From the NCBI GenBank assembly GCA_963514005.1, contig OY740781.1, positions 98,208,001-98,272,000 of the forward strand: a stretch of 64,000 bases of DNA, read 5' to 3'. Below are positions 12,641 through 49,162 of this stretch, piece by piece; within the stretch, counting starts at the first letter, position 1, and every line of letters begins with the position of its first letter. The notes beneath the pieces are model-generated. The model was not told where the DNA came from. It worked only from the letters and a program-made list of their open reading frames with translations, and made no database searches. The position numbers and the translations under genes are program-made. Source of the DNA: Raja brachyura (Eukaryota).

Positions 12641-13199
12641 AATCACAGATATTGATTACATGAAAGTGTTTTGACAGTTCCCCAACCCAATTAAAAAGTG
12701 CCCCTGTACAATTTTTCTACGGCAGCTTCTGGAAGGAAGTCAGTTGACCCAAGTAATGCAACATTTTCCCTGGTACTATAGACAACTTAAATAAGGCTTC
12801 ACACTTCCGCTGTGTTTCATTAAACAGCAACACAAACACATTGCAACATTATTTACAATACCGTTTCACACCCCCTTTTATAACCTACGCATTTGCAGAC
12901 CTTCTTATCTCCCTCTGCAAACCTTCATACATACTAACAAAGTTAGGACATCTGGACCTCTCCTTATCATCAACTTCCATCTGGGATCCAGACTCCTCTG
13001 AGCCGTGACTCCATCTTGCAACTTTCACAGAATGAGACCAAGCAGGCCCACCAAATGCAAAGAACGTCCATTTTACTTCAGAGTCACATGAGTGACTACG
13101 TGAAGAACCCCGTACAGCTGTTGGTGCATCATGACGTCAGACGCGTTGGTGCAGTCGGCCGATTGAGGTGGTTTTTAAAAAATTTTCAGTTCATTTTCT

Positions 13200-14405
13200 G
13201 TGATGGTTGGAGAGGTCCTTTTGGAAATGTTGCAGAAAGTGAAAAAGGTGGCAGCGAGGCGCTCCGGAGGGAGGAAGGTTGACGACCAGGAGAGTGCTGT
13301 TGGTGGAGGCCCGTCTTGTGCACCTGGTCTGATGCCGGCTATACAGCCAGGAATTGCGGACCCACTGCCTTCGAGCAGTGTAGGCTTGCCAGTAGTGCAG
13401 AAGGCCACTGGAAAGTCAGATAGGCCCGTTGACCCAGAGTTGGGCCTCGAGGTTGTACCCTCTACAGGAGAGTCTGTTTGCTCACGGCGCTCCCAGGTCG
13501 AGATTCTATTACAAAGAATGCTCGACAGGGACCAGCTCCGGGAGGAGGAGTGGTGCCCAAACCAGGCTGTTGGAGAGCCTGAGCTAGCAGTACATTTTAC
13601 AGGGGTGCAGGAATATCCTGCCTGTGAGGAGGATGTTCCAATGGTGCAGTTTGCTGATACCAAATCTATGGTGGGGGAGAGCAGTAAGGGAGTTCAGTTG
13701 GAGGTAATTCCTAATATTGCTGGTTAATCTGCTATGCCCAGAGAGACAGGAAAACCGATTGGTGAAGAATTGGCTGCAACAATTCAGTATATGCTCTCCC
13801 ACCAGTTACAGGAGTTAGCCATGGATGAGGCCGCAAAGTATGAAGCTCCTATTAATTGTCATCTTCTGAAAGTACCTGTGGTTAATCATCAGATTTGGAC
13901 ACAGTTGGGGGTGTCAGCTAGGGCTCAAGAAATGAAATTTCAAAAAGTGCTCAGATTGTTCTCGGCAGGGCTTGCGGCTTTGGAGAAAATAATTGATACA
14001 GGGAATATGACTGAAGCCCATCAGGATGCACTGGGACTGTTTTGTAGTGCATTCTTTGAAATTAACAACATCAGAAGAGCCGCAATAAGGCCGGTGATTA
14101 ATCATAATCTGGCTGCTTTGTGCAAACCACCCAGTGTACCGCCAAGAAATCTATTGTTTGGAGGTGATCTTGTTAAAAGAGTTAAAGAATGTCATGAGGA
14201 TGTAAAAACTATGGGCCTCATTAAGACAGCTGGCAAATAAGGGAAAAGGTTTTATCCTTATCAAAGAGGCACCAGTTTGGTTGCAGGGGAAGGAACCAGC
14301 CATACAGGCCTACTATACCGGAATTGGCAGGCTGCCACCGGTATGAAGAGCAAGGTGCATTTCTCAAGGGGCCGTGGACAACAAGGTCTACACGGACATT
14401 TGCAG
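13200..14405 (+). pseudogene. DIRS gag-like ORF1 (in-frame stops at 13725 and 14238)
   Basis: ORFs 13200..13727, 13734..14240 and 14277.. share one frame. The TAA at 14238 is CAA in copy 1. Confidence 0.8.
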
Positions 14406-16293
14406 GTAAGGAATGTGCCTTTGAGAGAGAATGAATTAAGTAATGTTGCTGTTGAAATTGGGGGAAGGTTAAAATTGTTTCTCAAACAATGGCAGGAGTT
14501 AACGTCAGATTTGTTTATACTTAACAGTAGTGAAGGGGTAAAAATTGAATTTTACTCTAATGAGAGTCCACCTAATCAACATGTTCCAAGTCGGAAACAT
14601 CTTTTCAGATGAAGAAAATGTACTCATACAAGAAGAAATTAATTCATTACACTAGAGAGGAGTAATTGAGACATCAGTCTATCAAGGTTGTCAATTTGTG
14701 TCAAGTATTTTTCCTAGGGATAAAAAGACTGGGGGATGCAGAATTATCCTGGATTTAACGAGTTTGAACAAGTTTGTCTGTTATAGGCATTTCAAAATGG
14801 AAACATTTTCCACGGCCAAACATCTAATTTCCAAAGGGTGTTATATGGTTAGCATTGATTTGAAAGATGCATATTACTCAGTGTCTATTCATGGTGATGA
14901 TAGAAGATATTTGAAATTTATTTGGAAGACTCAGCTGTGGCAATTTAAGGCACTGCCTAATGGATTAACTTCAGCCCCTAGACTATTTACTAAAAATATA
15001 AAACCTGTGTTAGCATTACTCGGAGCTCAGGGGCATATAGTAATGGCCTATTTAGATGATATTCTGATTGTTGGAAAGACTCGTGCTGAAGCTCAGTTGT
15101 CAGTTTCAGTTGTTAAATCCACTTTTCAACAATTGGGGTTCGTTATTCATCCAGATAAATCCAAATTATCACCAGTTTAAATCATTGATTATTTGGGATT
15201 TGCCATTAATTCAAATCACATGTTGGTAACATTGCCCAGGGACAAATTGCAACAGTTGATTGAGGATTGTGTTAATCTCCTTGGAGAACAATCTTCAATT
15301 AGACAAGTAGTTAAGTTGATTGGTAAATTGGTGGCTGCTTTTCCAGCTGTGCAGTATGGTCGTCTGCATTATCAACAATTACAACGATCAAAGGAACAGG
15401 CACTGAGAATACAAATGGGACATTTTGACAGGCCTATGCAGTTGTCAGCTGGGGCAATTTCCGACATACAATGGTTGATAGTAAATGCTTCAAAAAGTTT
15501 TAGGAAGGTTTTGGTGGAACCTTGAAATCGGCTTGTGGTATCACCTTCAATGATATTACAGACTGATGTAAGTGCACTAGGTTGGGGTGCAACAGATATG
15601 TCTTCCAGCTGTGGAGGCAGATGGAATGCGGAAGAGACATCCCTTCTTCAATTAAGAGGGATCAATTATTTAGAGTTGTTGGAAACCTGGTATGGGCTTA
15701 AGGCTTATTGTTCTACCAGTAGGGACTTGCATGTGCAGGTTCAGATTGACAACACCACAGCAGTGGCATATGTAAACCACATGGGTGGAATCAAGTCACA
15801 GTCTTGTGATAGACTGGCTAACCAGATTTGGAGCTGGGGCATTGACAAAAATATCTGGATTTCAGCAATTTATTTGCCAGGTAGATTTAACTGTAGCTGA
15901 TACTAGATCACGTCAGTTCAATGACAACATAGAATGGATGTTAAATCAGGATGTATTTAATCAAGTGATTGTTCGGTATGGAATGCCAGATATTGACTTG
16001 TTTGCAGCTAGGTTAAATCATCAGTTGCCCAGATATGTTTCATGGGAACCAGATCCTGGTGCAGCAGCAGTAGATCCTTTCTCGCTGCATTGGGGAGGAA
16101 TGTTTGTGGATGCATTTCCTCCATTCTGTCTCATCAGTAGGTGCTTGCAAAAGATCAAGCAGGACTCTGTTTCAGGGGTATTAGTAGTGCCAGATTGGCC
16201 TACACAAGCATGCTTTCTTTTTGTATTACAAATGGCTAGGGAGCCTCGCATGATTATTCCCAAGAATGAAAATCTACTGGTAAATCCAGTAAC
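14406..16293 (+). pseudogene. DIRS pol (RT, RNase H, methyltransferase), disrupted
   Basis: IGGRLKLF, RIILDLTSLN, SIDLKDAYY, LPNGLTSAPRLF, AYLDDILI, QIDNTTAVAYVN, DIDLFA, AFPPF. Confidence 0.92.
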
Positions 16294-17039
16294 TGTGGAT
16301 ATTTTCACGTCTGCCTGCAGAGATAGTACTCCGAAGCAGTATATCACCTCGATAAGGAAGTGGGAGCAATTCTGTCTACACCAGAACATTTCATATCAAA
16401 CTACAGGCATCACAGAAGTCTTCACGTAGTCACTCACGTGACTCCGAAGTAAAATAGTAAGATTAAACAAAAACTTACCAGTTTGGTTTGATCTTTATTT
16501 TATGTTGAGTTGAGGGACTACGTGCCCTCCGCTCCCAGCCCTCATAGATTTCATCTGGTAGTTCTAGTCTATGTTATCTTACCATTATACTTCAGTCATT
16601 GTTATCTGAGTTCACTCCGCTGCTTTGAAGATTGACGCACCAACGGCTGTACGGGGTTCTTCACGTAGTCCCTCAACTCCTCATAAAATAAAGATCAAAT
16701 GTCAAACTGGTAAGTTCTTGTTTAATCTTACTATTTTATAATAGCTTTATTTTGGCCAACATTAACATTACCATTGCGCCCTGTGGACTTAACCACGTAA
16801 ACAATATTCAAAAGACCTAACACTCCTGATCAACATGCCTTAGAATATTATCATGCTCTATTTGATCACATTATTCTCCTTGGTGAATACCAATGCAAAG
16901 AGAAACTATGTGTCTCCCACATATTCTACGTGAAATATTACACGTGAGCTAAGATAGTGGCATTTAAGGGGCATTTGGATAGGTACATGTGAGTGCAAGG
17001 AATAGAGGGATATTGATCCTGTACAGGCAGATGATATCA

Positions 17040-18390: not shown

Positions 18391-19810
18391 ATTTTTATGA
18401 GATGACCAAGAGATTGTAGAGGTATTTCGAGAGATTGTAGAGGTATTTCGAGAGTAAGATTAAAAACAGAGCACAGCTGAATATCTGAAATGAAAACATA
18501 AATTGCAGGAGACATTCATTAGGTTTGGCAACATCACGCAAAATGCCTTTGACCTGAAACATAACTCTGTTTCCCTACAGATGCTAAATTCCCCAGAAAA
18601 TATTCTATTTTGAATCAACATTGATATTTATATAGTGGCACTGATAAGCCTGGTGAATCCCTAAACTAAGCATTGAGAGGCAACTGTGCATATGGCCTAC
18701 CAAATGAACAAATTCAATCATAGTTATTGTACTCCCAAGACGTAATATTCGATTTCACATGTAAGATTGCAACATCGTTGGAGTTGGCTTCCAAAAACAC
18801 TAATGAATTTCAAACCTGTGCATAAAATTAGTATTAGTGCAGTCAGTGGGCAGATGGCAGTAGTAAAAGTCACAAATGTCAGTTCAGCAAGGAAAAATGA
18901 ATGAATTAAGAAAGGGCGAGGCTTGATCCAGAATGGAAAAACAAAACAATGTTAGACGAGTTCACAGAGTATAGGGATGCTGACAGAAGGAACTCGCACA
19001 GAAGAGGTTTTAATGATTTTGAGTTTGGTGAACAGTAGGGAACCATGTTATATTGTAAATATGCCCCTAGTGGCAAAGGGGAAAAGCAGCAATTTCAAAT
19101 TTGCTATAAATTTCAGGATGAGTACTGTGAAAAGGCTCAGGAAAGAACTCAAAATGTTACATGTTCTTACAATAGAAGGGTTGATCCAGCTGCAGATTGG
19201 CACTGAGTGATAAAGAACTGGGCACAAAAAAGTAAAATTTCAAATAAACCTTTACATTATGTAAATTTAAAATTAAGGGCATTTCTCCGATCCCTTTCTT
19301 TGATGGCACCACTTTGATTATTTGCAAGGCTATACTGTTTAAATTAGCAGTGATAGTACAGTTGGGTTGTCTTGTCATTTATGCAGACATGATTGATGCT
19401 TATGTGCAATGTTCATCTTTTATGGATAACCTAAAGTGTTGAGTATTAGAATCAGATCAGGCACCTCAACGAGTTTGGAGACCCAAAAGACTACAGATAT
19501 AGGAAAGCAGAGCAAAAAACAAACAGAAGGATGAACTCAACATCTTAAGCAGCGTCTGTGGAGCCAAATCAAATGTAGACGTTTCAGGTGGAGACTGGGT
19601 TCAGTCCTGATGCAGCGTATCGATCTGAATCGTCAACAGTTCTTTTCCCCAACAGGTGCCTCGCGACTCTTTGAGTTCCTCTGGCAGTCTTATTTTTTAC
19701 CTCAATGGGCTTTGTTCTATTTGCCTGATGTGAAGAGCTGAGAGAAAGGATATAAATAATACATAACTGGTCAGTAAACACACAAGCATTGTGACACCAT
19801 CATGTCTTGA

Positions 19811-19949
19811 TGTGGGGTGGAAGATTGCAACCTTCACGTGATCCTTCCTGTTTCGACTAATGCAATCAATTCAAAGTGCACAAACGGAAGATCAAATAGA
19901 ACAAGTTGTCCAACAACTTTAGGCTGTGCACGCCACACAAAAGAAGAAG
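19811..19949 (+). mobile_element. ~140-bp SINE-like element with 5' HDV-like ribozyme and (AAG)n tail, copy 1
   Basis: TSD atgtcttga at 19802-19810 and 19950-19958. Homologous to 30975-31112. Confidence 0.85.
19814..19867 (+). ncRNA. Minimal HDV/CPEB3-like ribozyme fold (mutated copy)
   Basis: P1 ggggtgg/ccttcct, P2 gattgca/tgcaatc, P3 acc/gat, L3 ttcacgt, J4/2 ctaa. Confidence 0.7.
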
Positions 19950-20193
19950 ATGTCTTGAAGGCATAGGATGTTCAGCATGTCCCCCAAAACTCTCACTAAC
20001 TTCTACAGATGTGTCGTAGAAAGCATTCTATTTGGATGCATCACAGCATGGTTTGGGAACAGCATCATCCAAGACCGCAATAAATTGCAGTGGATTGTAG
20101 ACGCTGCCCAGACCATCACACAAACCGATCTTTCTTCCATTGGATCCATTTACACTTCACGCTGCTTCAACAAGGCCAGCAGTATAATCAAGG

Positions 20194-20842: not shown

Positions 20843-22436
20843 AAAATATAAAAGTGGATAAGTCTCCAGGTCCTGACATGATATTCCCTAGGACATTGAG
20901 GGAAGTTAGTGTAGAAATAGCCGGGGCTATGACAGAAATATTTCAAATGTCATTAGAAACAGGAATAGTCCCCGAGGATTGGCGTACTGCGCATGTTGTT
21001 CCATTGTTTAAAAAGGGTTCTAAAAGTAAACCTAGCAATTATAGACCGGTTAGTTTGACTTCAGTGGTGGGCAAATTAATGGAAAAGATACTTAGAGATA
21101 ATATATATAAGTATCTGGATAAAGAGGTCTAATTAGGAACAGTCAACATGGATTTATGCCTGGAAGGTCATGTTTGACTAATCTTCTTGAATTTTTTGAA
21201 GAGGTTACTAGGGAAATTGACGAGGGTAAAGCAGTGGATGTTGTCTATATGGACTTCAGTAAGGCCTTTGACAAGGTTCCTCATGGAAGGTTGGTTAAGA
21301 AGGTTCAACTGTTGGGTATAAATGCAGGAATAGCAAGATGGATTCAACAGTGGCTGAATGGGAGAAGCCAGAGGGTAATGGTGGATGGCTGTTTGTCGGG
21401 TTGGAGGCAGATGACTAGTGGGGTGCCTCAGGGATCTGTGTTGGGTCCTTTGTTGTTTGTCATGTACATCAATGATCTGGATGAAGGGGTGGTAAATTGG
21501 ATTAGTAAGTATGCAGATGATACCAAGATAGGGGGTGTTGTGGATAATGAAGAGGATTTCCAAAGTCTACAGAATGATTTAGGCCAGTTGGAAAAATGGG
21601 CTGAAAGATGGCAGATGGAGTTTAATGCTGATAAATGTGAGGTGCTACACCTTGGCAGGACAAATCAAAATAGGACATACATTGTAAACGGTAGGGAATT
21701 GAAGAATACAGTTGAACAGAGGGATCTGGGAATAACCGTGCATAGTTCCTTGAAGGTGGAATCTCATATAGATAGGGTGGTAAAGAAAGCTTTTGGTATG
21801 CTAGCCTTTATAAATCGGAGCATTGAGTATAGAAGCTGGGATGTAATGTTAAAATTGTACAAGGCATTGGTGAGACCACATCTGGAGTATGGTGTACAAT
21901 TTTGGTCGCCCAATTATAGGAAGGATGTCAACAAAATAGAGAGGGTACAGAGGCGATTTACTAGAATGTTGCCTGGGTTTCAACAGCTAAGGTACAGAGA
22001 TAGGTTGAATAAGTTAGGTCTTTATTCTCTGGAGCGCAGAAGGTTAAGGGGGGACTTGATAGAGGTCTTTAAAATGATGAGATGGATAGACAGAGTTGAT
22101 GTGGACAATCTTTTCCCTTTGAGAATAGGGAAGATTCAAACAAGAGGACATGACTTTAGAATTAAGGGACAGAGGTTTAGGGGTAACATGAGGGGGAACT
22201 TCTTTACTCAGAGAGTGGTAGCGGTGTGGAATGAGCTTCCAGTGGAAGTGGTGGTGGCAGGTTCGTTGGTATCATTTAAAAATAAATTGGATAGGCATAT
22301 GGATGAGAAGGGTATGGAGGGTTATGGTATGAGTGCAGGCAGGTGGGACTAAGGGAAAAAGGTTGTTCGGCACGGACTTGAAGGGCCGAGATGGCCTGTT
22401 TCCATGCTGTAATTGTTATATGGTTATATGGTTATA
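20843..22436 (+). mobile_element. Young CR1 LINE (subfamily B), 5'-truncated
   Basis: Nearly identical to 44870-46458. (GTTATATG)n tail. 1-bp frameshift near 21128. Confidence 0.95.
21156..22352 (+). CDS. CR1 ORF2 reverse transcriptase (partial, 398 aa open)
   Basis: DFSKAFDKV, GVPQGSVLGP, KYADD, RDLG, RRLRGDLI, TRGH. Confidence 0.9.
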   Translation: MPGRSCLTNLLEFFEEVTREIDEGKAVDVVYMDFSKAFDKVPHGRLVKKVQLLGINAGIARWIQQWLNGRSQRVMVDGCLSGWRQMTSGVPQGSVLGPLLFVMYINDLDEGVVNWISKYADDTKIGGVVDNEEDFQSLQNDLGQLEKWAERWQMEFNADKCEVLHLGRTNQNRTYIVNGRELKNTVEQRDLGITVHSSLKVESHIDRVVKKAFGMLAFINRSIEYRSWDVMLKLYKALVRPHLEYGVQFWSPNYRKDVNKIERVQRRFTRMLPGFQQLRYRDRLNKLGLYSLERRRLRGDLIEVFKMMRWIDRVDVDNLFPLRIGKIQTRGHDFRIKGQRFRGNMRGNFFTQRVVAVWNELPVEVVVAGSLVSFKNKLDRHMDEKGMEGYGMSAGRWD

Positions 22437-30826: not shown

Positions 30827-30974
30827 GTGGAAACTAGGGGTTTCCCCTTGACTAACCTTCCCCTTCAGTGCTATTTTCCTGCATTAAATCTCCAGGATTC
30901 TATTGAATGAACTCAATGACTGAGTCTCCACAGACCTCTGTGGCAGGGAATTCCAAAGATTTATTGTCTTCTGA

Positions 30975-31112
30975 ATGGAGTGGGAGATTGCAACCTTCAT
31001 GTGGTCCACCCTGTTTCGGCTAATGCAATCAACTCAACATGCACAAACAAATAGATGTCATGTTTTGGTGTCCACAACTTTAGGCTGTGCACGCCATACG
31101 CAAGGAGAAGAC
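30975..31112 (+). mobile_element. ~140-bp HDV-ribozyme SINE, copy 2 (inserted in an old CR1)
   Basis: TSD tgtcttctga (30965-30974) and tgtcttttga (31113-31122). aaggagaaga tail. Confidence 0.85.
30977..31030 (+). ncRNA. Minimal HDV/CPEB3-like ribozyme fold
   Basis: P1 ggagtgg/ccaccct, P2 gattgca/tgcaatc, P3 acc/ggt, L3 ttcatgt, P1.1 G at 31013, J4/2 ctaa (candidate catalytic C at 31020). Confidence 0.72.
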
Positions 31113-31849
31113 TGTCTTTTGAGTGAAGATCATTCTCATCCTTTCTGCCTTAACGGGCCTGGCCCTGGTCTCCAAGCCTGTGATTATAGATTCCTCAATG
31201 AGGGAAACATCCTCCATGCATGTAGGCTGCTGAACCCTGTGATACATTTGAAATGTTTCATTGATATCACCTCTATTTTCTTTTAACTAAACAGAATTTA
31301 GACCCAGTTAACCAGGTCCACAGTTCACAATGATGTATCCTTGGAATTGCACCATTGCTTGCCAACTATTGGCCTATCAGGGAACCCTCTCATATGAGTT
31401 AATCTGGGTTTTTTTCATGCTTCCAGACCACCCCCGACCCCACCCCCACTCCACTACAATTAGTCTGAAGGTACCCCAACCTGAAACGTCACCTTATCCA
31501 TTTTCCTCAGAAATGCTTCCTGACCTGTTGAGTTACTCCAACGTTTTGTGCCCATTCTTAGAATTTAAATCCAGTTGACCCAGTCTCGCTCCATCTACCA
31601 AAAAACATCCAAGGAACCAGTCTGGTATATATTTGTTTCATTCCCTTTATGGCAACCATAGCTTTATTTCAACATGGGAAGATCAAATGGTCTATATTCC
31701 AAGTAGGGTCTTATCATTACAGTGCAACTTATTTATCCCTGTATTCAATACTCATACTAAAAGCCAACATTTGATTTGCTGTCCTAGTTGCTTGCTGCTG
31801 CTCTGTGTTAGCTTTGTAAAGGATACCCTTTGAACAGTAACATAACCCA

Positions 31850-43668: not shown

Positions 43669-44210
43669 GTAAAGGGTCTGAATACTTATGTAAATATGAT
43701 ATTTCAGTTATTTCAGTTATATGCTTTGTGTCTCAATGCAAGGAGTATTCGTAATAAGGTGGATGAGTTGAACGTGCAGATAGCTATTAATGAGTATGAT
43801 ATAGTTGGGATCACGGAGACATGGCTCCAGGGTGACCAAGGCTGGGAGCTGAACATCCAGGGATATTCAATATTCAGGAGGGATAGAGAGAAAGGAAAAG
43901 GAGGTGGGGTAGCGTTGCTGGTTAGAGAGGAGATTAACGCAATGGAAAGGAAGGACATTAGCTTGGAGCATGTGGAATCGGTATGGGTAGAGCTGCGAAA
44001 CACTAAGGGGCAGAAAACGCTAGTGGGAGTTGTGTACAGCCCATCCTAACAGTAGTAGTGAAGTTGGGGATGGTATCAAACAGGAAATTAGAAATGCGTG
44101 CGACAAAGGCAAAACAGTTATAATGGGTGACTTCAATCTACATATAGATTGGGTGAATCAAATTGGCAGGGGCGCTGAGGAAGAGGATTTTTTGGAAAGT
44201 ATGCGGGATA

Positions 44211-46458
44211 ATTTCAATATAATTATGGAGAAGGACAGAACTGGGCCTAGGGTTGAGATTTTTGATTGGAGAAAGGCTAACTTTAACGAGATGCGAGATG
44301 ATTTAAAAGGAGTGAACTGGGACATTTTGTTTTATGGGAAAGATGTAGAGGAGAAATGGAGGACATTTAAAGGGGAAATTTTAAGAGTACAAAATCTTTA
44401 TGTTCCTGTTCGGTTGAAAGGAACCAGTAAAAATTGGAAAGAGCCCTGGTTTTCAAGGGAAATTGGACATCTTGTTCGGAAAAAGAGGGAGATCTACAAT
44501 AATTATAAGCAGCATGAAGTAAATGAGGTGCTTGAGGAGTATAAGGAATGTAAAAAGAATCTTAAGAAAGAAATTAGAAAAGCTAAAAGAAGATATGAGG
44601 TTGCTTTGGCAAGTAAGGTGAAAGTAAATCCAAAGGGTTTCTACAGCTATGTTAATAGCAAAAGGATAACAAGGGATAAAATTGGTCCATTGTAGAGACC
44701 GAGTGGACAGCTATCTGCAGAGCCAAAAGAGATGGGGGAGATATTGAACAATTCCTTTTCTTCGGTATTCACCAAGGAGAAGGATAATGAATTATGTGAG
44801 GTAAGGGAAACTAGTAGAGTAGCTATGGATACTATGAGTTTCAAAGTAAAAGAAGTACTGACACTTTTGAAAAATATAAAAGTGGATAAGTCTCCAGGTC
44901 CTGACAAGATATTCCCTAGGACATTGAGGGAAGTTAGTGTAGAAATAGCCGGCGCTATGACAGAAATATTTCAAATGTCATTAGAAACGGGAATAGTCCC
45001 CGAGGATTGGCGTACTGCGCATGTTGTTCCATTGTATAAAAAGGGTTCTAAAAGTAAACCTAGCAATTATAGACCGGTTAGTTTGACTTCAGTGGTGGGC
45101 AAATTAATGGAAAAGATACTTAGAGATAATATATATAAGTATCTGGATAAAGAGGTTCTAATTAGGAACAGTCAACATGGATTTATGCCTGGAAGGTCAT
45201 GTTTGACTAATCTTCTTGAATTTTTTGAAGAGGTTACTAGGGAAATTGACGAGGGTAAAGCAGTGGATGTTGTCTATATGAACTTCAGTAAGGCCTTTGA
45301 CAAGGTTCCTCATGGAAGGTTGGTTAAGAAGGTTCAACTGTTGGGTATAAATGCAGGAATAGCAAGATGGATTCAACAGTGGCTGAATGGGAGAAGCCAG
45401 AGGGTAATGGTGGATGGCTGTTTGTCGGGTTGGAGGCAGATGACTAGTGGGGTGCCTCAGGGATCTGTGTTGGGTCCTTTGTTGTTTGTCATGTACATCA
45501 ATGATCTGGATGAAGGGGTGGTAAATTGGATTAGTAAGTATGCAGATGATACCAAGATAGGGGGTGTTGTGGATAATGAAGAGGATTTCCAAAGTCTACA
45601 GAATGATTTAGGCCAGTTGGAAAAATGGGCTGAAAGATGGCAGATGGAGTTTAATGCTGATAAATGTGAGGTGCTACACCTTGGCAGGACAAATCAAAAT
45701 AGGACGTACATTGTAAACGGTAGGGAATTGAAGAATACAGTTGAACAGAAGGATCTGGGAATAACCGTGCATAGTTCCTTGAAGGTGGAATCTCATATAG
45801 ATAGGGTGGTAAAGAAAGCTTTTGGTATGCTAGCCTTTATAAATCAGAGCATTGAGTATAGAAGCTGGGATGTAATGTTAAAATTGTACAAGGCATTGGT
45901 GAGACCAAATCTGGTGTATGGTGTACAATTTTGGTCGCCCAATTATAGGAAGGATGTCAACAAAATAGAGAGGGTACAGAGGCGATTTACTAGAATGTTG
46001 CCTCGGTTTCAACAGCTAAGTTACAGAGAGAGGTTGAGTAAGTTAGGTCTTTATTCTCTGGAGCGCAGAAGGTTAAGGGGGGACTTGATAGAGGTCTTTA
46101 AAATGATGAGAGGGATAGACAGAGTTGATGTGGACAAGCTTTTCCCTTTGGGAATAGGGAAGATTCAAACAAGAGGACATGACTTTAGAATTAAGGGACA
46201 GAGGTTTAGGGGTAACATGAGGGGGAATTTCTTTACTCAGAGAGTGGTAGCGGTGTGGATTGAGCTTCCAGTGGAAGTGGTGGCGGCAGGTTCGTTGGTA
46301 TCATTTAAAAATGAATTGGATAGGCATATGGATGAGAAGGGTATGGAGGGTTATGGTATGAGTGCAGGCAGGTGGGACTAAGGGAAAAAAGTTGTTCGGC
46401 ACGGACTTGAAGGGCCGAGATGGCCTGTTTCCGTGCTGTAATTGTTATATGGTTATAT
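44211..46458 (+). mobile_element. Young CR1 LINE (subfamily B) nested in CR1-A
   Basis: gata duplicated at 44207-44210 and 46459-46462. The host frame FLESMRD|SYLNQHV rejoins. Confidence 0.95.
44732..46381 (+). CDS. CR1 ORF2 reverse transcriptase (549 aa open, 5'-truncated element)
   Basis: KSPGPD, NYRPVSL, QHGF, KAFD, GVPQGS, YADD. Confidence 0.92.
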   Translation: MGEILNNSFSSVFTKEKDNELCEVRETSRVAMDTMSFKVKEVLTLLKNIKVDKSPGPDKIFPRTLREVSVEIAGAMTEIFQMSLETGIVPEDWRTAHVVPLYKKGSKSKPSNYRPVSLTSVVGKLMEKILRDNIYKYLDKEVLIRNSQHGFMPGRSCLTNLLEFFEEVTREIDEGKAVDVVYMNFSKAFDKVPHGRLVKKVQLLGINAGIARWIQQWLNGRSQRVMVDGCLSGWRQMTSGVPQGSVLGPLLFVMYINDLDEGVVNWISKYADDTKIGGVVDNEEDFQSLQNDLGQLEKWAERWQMEFNADKCEVLHLGRTNQNRTYIVNGRELKNTVEQKDLGITVHSSLKVESHIDRVVKKAFGMLAFINQSIEYRSWDVMLKLYKALVRPNLVYGVQFWSPNYRKDVNKIERVQRRFTRMLPRFQQLSYRERLSKLGLYSLERRRLRGDLIEVFKMMRGIDRVDVDKLFPLGIGKIQTRGHDFRIKGQRFRGNMRGNFFTQRVVAVWIELPVEVVAAGSLVSFKNELDRHMDEKGMEGYGMSAGRWD

Positions 46459-48220
46459 GATAGTTATCTAAATCAACATGTAGAGGAACCAACGAGAGAG
46501 CAGGCTATTTTAGACTGGGTATTGATTAATGAGGAAGGGTTAGTTAGCAGTCTTATTGTGCATGCCCCCTTGGGCAAGAGTGACCATAATATGGTCGAGT
46601 TCCTCATTAGGATGGAGAGTGACATTGTTAATTCAGAAACAATGGTTCTGAACTTAAGGAAAGGTAACTTTGAGGGTATGAGACGTGAATTGGCCAAGAT
46701 TGACTGGCAATCAATTCTAAAAGGGTTGACGGTGGATACGCAATGGAAGACATTTAAAGGCTGCATGGATGAACTTCAAAAATTGTTCATCCCAATTTGG
46801 CAAAAGAATAGATCAGGGAAGGTAGTGCATCCGTGGATAACAAGGGAAATCAGGGATAGTATCAAAGCAAAGGATGATGCGTACAAAGTAGCCAGAAAAA
46901 GCAGCATACCAGAGGACTGGGAGAAATTCAGAGACCAGCAGAGAAGGACAAAGGGCTTGATTAGGAAAGGAAAAATAGATTATGAAAGAAAACTGGCAGG
47001 GAACATAAAAACTGACTGCAAAAGTTTTTAGAGATATGTGAAGAGAAAGAGATTAGTTAAAACAAATGTAGGTCCCTTGCAGTCAGAAACAGGTGAGTTA
47101 ATCATGGGGAACAAGGATATGGCGGACCAATTGAATAACTACTTTGGTTCCGTTTTCACTAAGGAAGACATAAATAATCTGCCGGAAATAGCAGGGGACC
47201 GCGGGTCAAAGGAGTACTTGAGTGAAATACAGGTTAGTCAGGAAGTGGTGTTGGGTAAATTGAATGGATTAAAGGCCGATAAATCCCCAGGGCCAGATAG
47301 GCTGCATCCCAGAGTACTTAAGGAAATAGCTCCAGAAATAGTGGATGGATTAGTGATAATCTTTCAAAACTCTTTAGATTCTCGAGTAGTTCCTGAGGAT
47401 TAGCGGGTAGCAAACGTAACCCCTCTTTTTAAGAAGGGGGGGAGAGAGAAAACGTGGAATTACAGACCAGTTCGTCTAACATCGGTAGTGGGGAAACTGC
47501 TAGAGTCAGTTATTAAAGATGGGATAGCGGCACATTTGGAAAGTGGTGAAATCATTGGACAAAGTCAGCATGGATTTATGAAAGGTAAATCATGTCTGAC
47601 GAATCTTGTGGAATTTTTCGAGGATGTAACTAATAGCGTGGATACGGGAGAACCAGTGGATGTGGTGTATCTGGACTTCCAGAAGGCTTTCGACAAGGTC
47701 CCACATAAGAGATTGGTATATAAACTTAAAGCATATGGCATTGGGGGTTCAGTATTGATGTGGATAGAGAACTGGCTACAAACAGGAAACAAAGAGTAGG
47801 AGTAAACGGGTCGTTTTCACAATGGCAGGCAGTGACTAGTGGGGTACCGCAAGGCTCAGTGCTGGGACCCCAGCTATTTACAATATACATAAATGATCTG
47901 GATGAGGGAATTGAAGGCAATATCCCCAAGTTTGCGGATGACACTAAGCTGGGGGGCAGTGTTAGCTGTGAGGAGGATGCTAGGAGACTGCAAGGTGACT
48001 TGGATAGGCTGGGTGAGTGGGCAAATGTTTGGCAGATGCAGTATAATGTGGATAAATGTGAGGTTATCCACTTTGGTGGCAAAAATAGGAAAACAGACTA
48101 TTATCTAAATGGAGGCCGATTAGGAAAAGGGGAGATGCAGCGAGACCTGGGTGTCATGGTGCACCAGTCATTGAAAGTAGGCAAACCCTACCATTCCTTG
48201 ACATTTCCGACATTTCCCTA

Positions 48221-49162
48221 CCATTCCTTGACCTCACCATCTCTATTGCAGGTGACACACTCCTGACTGACATCCACTACAAACCAACTGACTCCCACAG
48301 CTACCTGGACTACTCTTCCTCCCACCCTGCTTCCTGTAAGGACTCCATCCCCTATTCCCAATTCCTCCGACTACGCCGCATCTGCTCCCAGGATGACGTG
48401 TTCCACACCAGGTCATCGCAAATGTCCTCGTTCTTCAGAGAACGGGGTTTCCCCTCCCCCACTATAGATGAGGCTCGCACCAGGGTCTCCTCCATACCCC
48501 GCAACACTGCCCTCTCTCCCCATTCCCCCACTCACAACAAGGGCCGAGTCCCCCTGGTCCTCACCTTTCACCCCACCAGCCAGCGCATACAACAGATAGT
48601 CCTCCGCCAGTTTCGCCACCTCCAACGTGACCCCTCCACTCGCCACATCTTCCCATCTCCCCCCCTATCTGCCTTCCGCAAAGACCGCTCCCTCCGCAAC
48701 TCCCTCGTCAATTCTTCCCTTCCCTCCTGCTCCACTCCTTCCCCGGGCACTTTCCCTTGCAACCGCAAGAGATGCTACACTTGTTCCTTCACCTCCCCCA
48801 TCCACTCCTTTCAGGGACCCAAGCAGTCATTCCAAGTCCGACAGAGGTTCACCTGCACCTCCTCCAACCTCGTCTACTGCATCCGTTGCTCCAGATGCCA
48901 GCTAATCTACATCGGTGAGACCAAGCGGAGGCTAGGCGATCGTTTCGCCGAACACCTCCGCTCGGTCCGCAATAACCAACCCGACCTCCCGGTGGCTCAG
49001 CACTTCAACTCCCCCTCCCACTCCGTATCCGACCTCTCGGTCCTGGGCCTCCTCCATGGCCAGAGTGAACAACACCGCAAGTTTGAGGAACAACATCTCA
49101 TATTCCGCTTGGGGAGTCTGCATCCTCTGGGCTTAAACATTGAATTTTCTCTATTCTGTTAA
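48221..49162 (+). CDS. Penelope RT C-terminus + Cys linker + GIY-YIG endonuclease (open frame)
   Basis: PFLD..YKPTDSHSYLDYSSSHP; CNRKRCYTC; LVYCIRC..YIGETKRRL..RFAEH; EEQHLI; GLN. Confidence 0.9.
   Translation, partial: PFLDLTISIAGDTLLTDIHYKPTDSHSYLDYSSSHPASCKDSIPYSQFLRLRRICSQDDVFHTRSSQMSSFFRERGFPSPTIDEARTRVSSIPRNTALSPHSPTHNKGRVPLVLTFHPTSQRIQQIVLRQFRHLQRDPSTRHIFPSPPLSAFRKDRSLRNSLVNSSLPSCSTPSPGTFPCNRKRCYTCSFTSPIHSFQGPKQSFQVRQRFTCTSSNLVYCIRCSRCQLIYIGETKRRLGDRFAEHLRSVRNNQPDLPVAQHFNSPSHSVSDLSVLGLLHGQSEQHRKFEEQHLIFRLGSLHPLGLNIEFSLFC

What the first reader, a model, noticed from the sequence alone, without database searches (positions are those of the whole stretch)
19802..19958. ~140-bp SINE whose head is a minimal HDV/CPEB3-like self-cleaving ribozyme (two copies)
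Seen: two homologous TSD-flanked elements (19811-19949 and 30975-31112) with no Pol III A/B boxes and an AAG-rich tail. Their combined consensus is GGGGUGG-RA-GAUUGCA-ACC-UUCACGU-GGU-CCACCCU-G-UUUCGR-CUAA-UGCAAUC. This parses as the HDV nested double pseudoknot: a 7-bp P1 with a G1-U wobble, 7-bp P2, 3-bp P3, a one-pair P1.1, P4 reduced to a few nucleotides, and J4/2 starting with the catalytic C. The two copies carry different lesions that complement each other. G1 lies 2-3 nt from the left TSD in both. Established: the mammalian CPEB3 ribozyme has loop L3 UUCACGU, and HDV-like ribozymes process the 5' ends of R2, Ingi/L1Tc and RTE retrotransposons. Inference: this is a promoterless mini-retroposon that excises itself from read-through transcripts and borrows an Ingi/Vingi- or RTE-type RT. 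I cannot tell whether the family is already catalogued.
Basis: partly seen in the sequence, partly recalled or inferred. Interest (0 to 1): 0.85.

Follow-up and report, generated by a model that had tools for sequence, protein, structure and literature searches.

The report
Ribozyme-headed mini-retroposon from a Vingi-like LINE
This is a 140-base jumping element, present in thousands of copies and made of just the two ends of a larger retrotransposon, whose first 54 bases are predicted to fold into a stripped-down self-cutting RNA that would free it from host transcripts.

Summary
Confirmed and extended. The two copies belong to a dispersed family (3,741 exact copies of a 30-nt head motif, 8,167 of a 23-nt tail motif; controls 0). 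I found the parent: a 3.1-kb single-ORF APE/RT LINE without RNase H (Vingi-like) carrying the same head and tail. Copy 2 is that LINE's first ~96 and last ~41 nt joined at a 2-nt overlap; copy 1 is a younger subfamily with a remodelled middle. The head fits the HDV double pseudoknot with no P4; 0 of 5,000 shuffles fit. The target-site duplication abuts G1 in 73 of 92 copies. Four other element families (two in this genome, two in metagenomes) begin with the same fold built from unrelated helix sequences, which supplies the missing covariation. Cleavage is not shown, Rfam scores stay below cut-off, both window copies are damaged, and an internal promoter (as in L1Tc) is not excluded. It is not a SINE in the strict sense but a SIDE/bipartite non-autonomous LINE, a known kind (R2 SIDEs, NARTc). 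New in my searches: ribozymes on Vingi-like elements and a P4-less one in an animal genome.

The parts
19802..19810 (+). Copy 1 left target-site duplication (9 bp), followed by 3 extra nt
   Evidence: repeated at 19950-19958
19814..19867 (+). Copy 1 predicted HDV-like ribozyme, 54 nt: P1 19814-19820/19843-19849, J1/2 19821-19822, P2 19823-19829/19861-19867, P3 19830-19832/19840-19842, L3 19833-19839, P1.1 partner 19850, no P4 (19852-19856), catalytic-position C 19857. Damaged at 19841, 19845, 19846
19868..19885 (+). Rest of the LINE-derived 5' part in copy 1 (element positions 1-72 match LINE 5' ends at 82-88%)
19886..19905 (+). About 20 nt specific to subfamilies A/C; not found in the LINE copies examined
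19906..19949 (+). Copy 1 LINE-derived 3' part: last codons and stop of the ORF, short 3' UTR, (AAG)n tail
19950..19958 (+). Copy 1 right target-site duplication
30965..30974 (+). Copy 2 left target-site duplication (10 bp, one mismatch)
30977..31030 (+). Copy 2 predicted ribozyme, same register; catalytic-position C 31020; damaged at 30979 (P1) and 31000 (L3)
30977..31072 (+). Copy 2 5' part = first 96 nt of the LINE 5' UTR (85-92% to natural LINE copies L202, L267, L274, L275), ending just before the ATG region
31071..31112 (+). Copy 2 3' part = last ~41 nt of the LINE plus AAG tail; overlaps the 5' part by 2 nt (deletion junction)
31113..31122 (+). Copy 2 right target-site duplication

Best explanation
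The element is a short internal-deletion derivative of a Vingi-like LINE that keeps only the LINE's two ends; its first 54 nt are predicted to fold as a P4-less HDV-like ribozyme that likely cuts the RNA just before G1, and the freed RNA is likely copied into new sites by a Vingi-type endonuclease/reverse transcriptase. Shown: shared ends with the LINE, the deletion junction, TSDs, the sharp start at G1, the pairings and their conservation across five families. Inferred: transcription as part of host read-through RNA; self-cleavage; recognition of the 3' ~40 nt and AAG tail by the LINE protein; target-primed reverse transcription.
For: Family size: 3,741 and 8,167 exact motif copies, reversed-pattern controls 0. 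Parent LINE shares the last ~41 nt and the first 72-96 nt; natural full-length copy L202 spans about 3.1 kb, and L274 has a 12-bp TSD abutting G1; domains APE + RT, no RNase H. TSD found in 92 of 127 distinct short copies (8-15 bp), abutting G1 in 73 of 92; mismatched-flank control 1 of 126. In the 30 loci picked by tail only, 21 align from G1, 2 more keep the spacing with altered first bases, 2 more start at G1 beyond a nested insertion. Descriptor: intact copy L003 fits with 0 mismatches, 0 of 5,000 dinucleotide shuffles fit; no hit outside three element families in 2.59 Mb of host sequence, both strands. On L003 the two best of 4 Rfam matches are RF00094 and RF02682, in the same register. 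Subfamily differences inside the core fall only at J1/2, at a P1 pair that changes U-A to U.G, and at the variable base after the C; the same last two are the only variants above 10% in contigs of three other-organism runs. Four other families start with the same topology and different helix sequences: host short family 2 (RF02682 E 0.005), host LINE family ii (P1.1 is U-A instead of C-G), metagenome L279 and the L300 family (RF00622 E 0.0025).
Against: No cleavage data. Rfam scores on L003 are 21.2 and 16 bits against cut-offs of 50 and 44, E 0.33 and 0.7; nothing in the window scan or on L032. J1/2 is 2 nt; in Agam-2-1 constructs 0-1 nt spacers gave little or no activity (PMC4908430), though those had a longer P2. 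A sharp 5' end is equally expected from an internal promoter. Of 9 LINE copies with a head, only 3 start at position 1-2, one is unclear and 5 lack the first 5-10 nt. Only 10 of 30 tail-picked loci keep a strictly intact fold. No intact parent ORF was seen (longest open frame 518 aa among listed matches of 75% identity or more), and LINE copies are more diverged (median 88.5%) than subfamily A (94.6%, a sample biased to similar copies), so the enzyme that moved subfamily A is not identified. Contigs from runs guessed to be RNA run through G1 into upstream flank, so uncleaved RNA or DNA is present.
Confidence: 0.72

Rival explanations
1. Dual promoter/ribozyme, as in L1Tc and NARTc: the head DNA is also an internal RNA polymerase II promoter, so most element RNA starts at or near G1 and cleavage only trims read-through RNA.
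For: Pr77 of L1Tc/NARTc, in the sister Ingi clade, does both jobs (PMC3383444, passages). Dispersed insertion without a fixed host promoter favours a carried promoter. Every sequence result here fits this too.
Against: No promoter evidence; the head sequence differs completely among the five families while the fold is kept, which points to selection on RNA structure.
Confidence: 0.3
2. The fold is real but works mainly as a non-cleaving or slow-cleaving 5' module (exonuclease shield, translation aid for the LINE, or a signal for 5' junction formation), and the short elements simply inherited it.
For: P4 is absent and J1/2 is short; Rfam scores are low. In R2 templates the fold is described as giving cap-like protection (PMC13708176). 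Some well-folded trypanosome SIDER heads did not cleave (PMC4035085).
Against: The catalytic-position C and J4/2 pattern are kept in all five families; relaxed-descriptor hits in family 1 carry C in 126 locus hits against T in 4 (loci overlap, so these are not copy counts). Natural P4-less ribozymes cleave (PMC10879173).
Confidence: 0.17
3. A conventional Pol III SINE with a small-RNA head, the pseudoknot being chance.
For: Length, TSDs and simple-repeat tail look SINE-like.
Against: The head is the LINE's 5' UTR; no tRNA call in the window; no exact A or B box and no one-mismatch pair that recurs at the same place in all four copies tested; 0 of 5,000 shuffles fit the fold.
Confidence: 0.01

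Closest known systems
R2 SIDEs and R2/R1 hybrid SIDEs of Drosophila (Eickbush and Eickbush 2012, PMC3414825; passages read)
   Same: Non-autonomous element made of a 5' HDV-like ribozyme plus the 3' end of a LINE; not a Pol III SINE; cleavage shown there.
   Different: R2 SIDEs are rare, confined to rDNA, use an R2/R1 protein and a larger ribozyme. This one is dispersed in thousands of copies, about 140 bp, from an APE-type LINE.
NARTc/RIME/SIDER of trypanosomatids, with the Pr77/L1TcRz head (PMC4035085, PMC3383444; passages read)
   Same: Short derivative sharing the 5' ribozyme and 3' end of an Ingi-clade LINE; cleavage just before +1.
   Different: Parent has RNase H; ribozyme is 77 nt with P4; NARTc is 263 nt; host is a protist. 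Promoter activity shown there, untested here.
Bipartite non-autonomous Vingi elements such as the Vingi-1_EE derivatives (as cited in Kojima 2018, PMC5786205; passages read; the 2011 source paper was not held)
   Same: Internal-deletion derivatives keeping the 5' and 3' ends of a single-ORF APE LINE without RNase H.
   Different: [quoted passage not shown] I could not check whether this family is in Repbase or Dfam.
Minimal HDV-like ribozymes: drz-Mtgn-1 and theta ribozymes (PMC10879173; passages and section 7 read)
   Same: No P4; catalytic C first in J4/2; cleavage site at G1.
   Different: Reported from metagenomes and gut phages, often next to tRNAs; that study found none in human, mouse or protist genomes. 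Here it heads a retroposon in a 2.7-Gb animal genome.
Mammalian CPEB3 ribozyme (Rfam RF00622)
   Same: The L3 loop of the related L300 family aligns letter for letter with the model's L3 and equals the L3 here; single-pair P1.1 in CPEB3 is recalled.
   Different: CPEB3 is a single intronic copy with P4; family 1 itself gave no RF00622 match.

Membership tests
HDV-like ribozyme | Nested double pseudoknot: P1 (6-7 bp, starting at G1), P2, 3-bp P3, L3, P1.1 | tested here: met
   L003 fits with 0 mismatches, 0 of 5,000 shuffles; subfamily majorities keep all pairs; window copies carry 2 and 1 mismatches
HDV-like ribozyme | Catalytic C at the start of J4/2, followed by N-R-A | tested here: met
   C in 67 of 70, 28 of 29 and 13 of 14 copies of subfamilies A, B, C; the next base varies in C
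HDV-like ribozyme | Covariation of helices | tested here: met
   Not within the family (one one-sided change). Across five families P1 and P2 differ wholly, P3 occurs in two forms, P1.1 as C-G, U-A or two pairs. Read by descriptor and eye, no R-scape statistic
HDV-like ribozyme | Score above an Rfam family cut-off | tested here: not met
   RF00094 21.2 of 50 bits, RF02682 16 of 44 bits on L003; models expect P4
HDV-like ribozyme | Mg-dependent self-cleavage 5' of G1, lost on C-to-U | not testable with these tools
   needs an in vitro assay
Minimal (P4-less) HDV-like ribozyme | P4 absent | tested here: met
   5 nt between the P1.1 dinucleotide and the C in subfamilies A, B, C and in the LINE
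Theta ribozyme | Phage origin, G1 next to a tRNA 3' end | tested here: not met
   G1 abuts the TSD; no tRNA in the window
SIDE / bipartite non-autonomous LINE | Both ends derived from one autonomous LINE, interior deleted | tested here: met
   copy 2 positions 1-96 and 95-135 match the two ends of L202 and L274
SIDE / bipartite non-autonomous LINE | Own amplification by retrotransposition (TSDs, simple-repeat tail, many sites) | tested here: met
   TSD in 92 of 127, control 1 of 126; 8,167 tail motifs
SIDE / bipartite non-autonomous LINE | Released from a host co-transcript rather than made by Pol III | not testable with these tools
   only assembled contigs were available
Classical SINE (tRNA, 7SL, 5S or snRNA head) | Small-RNA-derived head with Pol III boxes | tested here: not met
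Vingi clade (parent LINE) | Compact single ORF, APE + RT, no RNase H (definition from PMC13708176) | tested here: met
   about 3.1 kb; ATG about 100 nt after G1; Pfam PF03372/PF14529 and PF00078 only, in host fragments and in intact relatives P0003, P0006, L279
Vingi clade (parent LINE) | RT phylogeny with named Vingi, Ingi and RTE references | not tested
   no named reference sequence came from any call; none of the 120 listed homologues is labelled Vingi
Ingi clade (parent LINE) | RNase H domain after RT | tested here: not met

The most novel reading that the evidence does not exclude
Vingi-type LINEs as a clade begin with an active HDV-like ribozyme, and in this animal one lineage has shrunk it to a 54-nt P4-less form, so far described only from phages and metagenomes, which powers a 140-bp parasite and leaves over a thousand intact RNA-cutting sites scattered through the genome, able to sever host pre-mRNAs when they land sense-strand in introns. 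A second, unrelated 200-bp family in the same genome has the same design, so the route is repeatable.
Probability: 0.5. Interest if true: 0.72.

Novelty: new variant of a known kind. Interest (0 to 1): 0.6.

Why it matters
It would add Vingi-like LINEs to the clades that define their 5' end by self-cleavage, explain why this clade spawns two-ended mini-elements (a question left open in PMC5786205), and give a natural P4-less HDV-like ribozyme with a clear job in a eukaryote. The 140-bp element and its shorter deletion variants map the minimal cis-signals for Vingi mobilisation; Vingi-1 UTRs are used in RNA-based gene-insertion platforms, and the review of them that I read mentions ribozymes only for R2. 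Thousands of natural variants of one 54-nt ribozyme are also a ready mutational scan.

Tried and rejected
Rfam scan of the whole window: 17 matches at E up to 5, none a ribozyme, none on the two copies. PF14529 search for the partner: the 30 loci fetched were one two-ORF LINE family with no shared ends. Head-anchored exclusion pattern: 240 matches, 50 fetched, all short copies, deletion variants or interrupted copies, no LINE. First strict descriptor: no hit in the window, in L091-L120 or in 80 metagenome loci; the metagenome heads were then found by eye upstream of the ORFs and needed a 6-bp P1 or long L3 in the descriptor, so that descriptor was adjusted after seeing them; L290 did not fit at 2 mismatches. 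A younger partner LINE for subfamily A: 12 loci of three other Vingi-like families share at most the last ~20 nt. Expression: only contigs, kind mostly guessed, so no start, strand or level. Earlier findings of the scan: nothing. Papers not held: Ruminski 2011, Kojima 2011, Webb 2009; they may already list ribozymes from elements that are Vingi. Repbase and Dfam could not be searched. Scripts 36 and 108 stopped early on an error after printing the parts cited.

Full report
Observation. Counting from G1 (19814 and 30977), the 54-nt head has the helices listed under parts, with the catalytic-position C at 19857 and 31020. Copy 1 has a mismatch in P3 and one in P1; copy 2 has one in P1 and a change in L3. 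Both have TSDs and an AAG tail.

Family. The genome is 2.7 Gb; that it is a cartilaginous fish is my guess from its repeats, recalled and not tested. Searches with each copy gave 2,387 and 3,105 first-look candidates, 40 scored each. A 30-nt head pattern occurs exactly 3,741 times and a 23-nt tail pattern 8,167 times, reversed controls 0; the tail count includes LINE ends. Among 127 distinct short copies in hand there are three subfamilies, A (70; copy 1), B (29; copy 2) and C (14), plus 14 others, at 3.3%, 4.5% and 6.4% from their majority; this sample is biased towards copies like the window's. The middle tolerates many deletions, down to head plus a few bases of tail (L063, L128).

5' ends. 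A TSD was found in 92 of 127 copies, mostly 10-12 bp, abutting G1 in 73 and within 3 nt in 89; mismatched flanks gave 1 of 126. In the 30 loci picked by tail alone (two pairs are duplicates), 21 align from G1, L240 and L265 keep the spacing with altered first bases, L247 and L250 start at G1 beyond nested insertions, L261 has a rearranged head, L252/L253 are inverted, L258 has no head within 1.5 kb and L260 is a LINE fragment.

Parent LINE. A tail pattern that excluded the short elements' middle returned 656 matches; 17 of the 30 fetched continue upstream into an ORF end with RT motifs, a C-terminal Cys/His cluster and a stop about 25 nt before the tail. Walking upstream reached its 5' end, which is the same head, then a short UTR, an ATG and an APE endonuclease. 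L202 spans about 3.1 kb; L274 carries a 12-bp TSD abutting G1. Pfam finds endonuclease and RT, no RNase H, in 5 of 8 host fragments (3 had no match) and in the intact relatives. The protein search gave 382 relatives, many about 1,000 aa on 3.1-3.9-kb contigs, best 70% identical. This fits the description of Vingi as single-ORF, APE-type, without RNase H (PMC13708176, passages); no tree with named references was possible. Copy 2 is LINE positions 1-96 joined to the last ~41 nt with a 2-nt overlap; copy 1 matches the LINE over 1-72 and 93-137. All LINE copies seen are broken, median 88.5% identical to each other, and one holds an inserted A copy (L220), so A outlived at least that copy; its enzyme source is open. 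Of 9 LINE copies with a head, 3 start at position 1-2, one is unclear, 5 lack 5-10 nt.

Fold. Intact copy L003 fits an HDV descriptor with no mismatch; 0 of 5,000 dinucleotide shuffles fit. A relaxed descriptor found no hit outside three element families in 2.59 Mb of overlapping host loci, both strands. Rfam gives nothing on the damaged window copies or on L032, which has T at the catalytic position; on L003 the top two of four matches are RF00094 and RF02682 in the proposed register, below cut-off. Within the family the core differs between subfamilies only at position 8 (J1/2), 32 (P1 pair kept as a wobble) and 45 (after the C). Contigs of three runs from other coded organisms (175, 827 and 639 laid) show loose ends at G1 and, inside the core, variants above 10% only at 32 and 45; a fourth run had 3 contigs.

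Covariation across families. (a) A second host family, found as the single non-family descriptor hit: about 200 bp, 884 candidates, TSDs, similar AAG tail, 7-bp P1, 8-bp P2, 5-bp P4; 10 of 25 copies strictly intact; RF02682 E 0.005; 0 of 3,000 shuffles. (b) A second Vingi-like LINE family in the host, 70 candidates: conservation begins at G1 in the 20 loci, P1.1 is U-A, 5 of 20 strictly intact, 0 of 3,000 shuffles. (c) L279, a metagenome contig with an intact 1,039-codon frame, 48% to P0003: two-pair P1.1, long L3 insert, P4; 0 of 400 shuffles. (d) Seven copies of another metagenome family with the same L3 as family 1, 6-bp P1, 8-bp P2, 6-bp P4; L300 fits with one mismatch, 0 of 3,000 shuffles, RF00622 E 0.0025; L290 does not fit at two. 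Most of the 80 metagenome loci did not reach a 5' end or showed no head.

Mechanism. Most likely the element is transcribed inside host RNA, cuts itself before G1, and its 3' end recruits a Vingi-type protein for target-primed reverse transcription. The anatomy is shown; transcription route, cleavage and protein use are inferred. Rivals are an added internal promoter (precedent in L1Tc, PMC3383444) and a non-cleaving role of the fold (short J1/2, PMC4908430; inactive SIDER heads, PMC4035085). The promoter rival can coexist with cleavage.

Known and new. [quoted passage not shown] A review notes HDV-like or hammerhead ribozymes in some LINEs and SINEs of diverse animals (PMC6765202, passages). 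P4-less forms are reported from metagenomes and phages (PMC10879173). I also read passages of PMC7761336 and PMC5753468, which name no such family. Searches: Vingi + ribozyme gave 6 papers, two read in passages, neither assigning a ribozyme to Vingi; self-cleaving ribozyme + SINE + cartilaginous fish gave 1 listing, on R2; the five-term search gave 0; the phrase 'minimal HDV-like ribozyme' had no occurrence in the 20 listed papers; some searches were seen as listings. Ruminski 2011, Kojima 2011 and Webb 2009 were not held, no supplements were read, and Repbase, Dfam and patents were out of reach, so prior description cannot be excluded.

Verdict.

Noticed in passing
L067:1000-1184 (- strand); L358-L382: Second short retroposon family, about 200 bp, with its own HDV-like head (with P4), TSDs and an AAG tail like family 1; 884 first-look candidates; parent LINE not found.
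   Followed up: partly
L393-L424: At least three further Vingi-like LINE families in the host at 37-46% protein identity to P0003; one starts sharply at an HDV-like fold. The 5' ends of the other two were not reached.
   Followed up: partly
P0067 against L201, L202, L270, L271, L274: A protein annotated from the eel Synaphobranchus kaupii is 50-88% identical in segments to the broken host LINE copies, up to 82% over 61% of P0002; horizontal transfer is possible but untested.
   Followed up: no
L210/L268, L222/L277, L203, L165: LINE copies whose head is inverted against the body, like twin-primed 5' inversions.
   Followed up: no
L063, L128, L076: Very short TSD-flanked variants: the head plus about 15-45 nt; they may mark the minimal mobilisable unit.
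   Followed up: no
window:19868-19935: In intact copy L003 the body folds as a hairpin pairing LINE 5'-derived with LINE 3'-derived bases (-16.2 kcal/mol, no shuffle control); in the full LINE this would be an end-to-end pairing.
   Followed up: partly
L279:424-567: In this family the ATG-bearing frame overlaps the ribozyme and a long stem is inserted in L3.
   Followed up: no
window:37-3384 and 13179-16429: Two broken elements with RT, RNase H-like and tyrosine-recombinase-like frames (DIRS-like by recall); CR1-like RT frames at 21123-22352 and 44024-48266, a Penelope-like frame at 48089-49162.
   Followed up: no
L091-L120: A young two-ORF LINE family (CCHC ORF1, APE-RT; 91-98% between copies), I/Nimb-like by recall; unrelated to the finding.
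   Followed up: no
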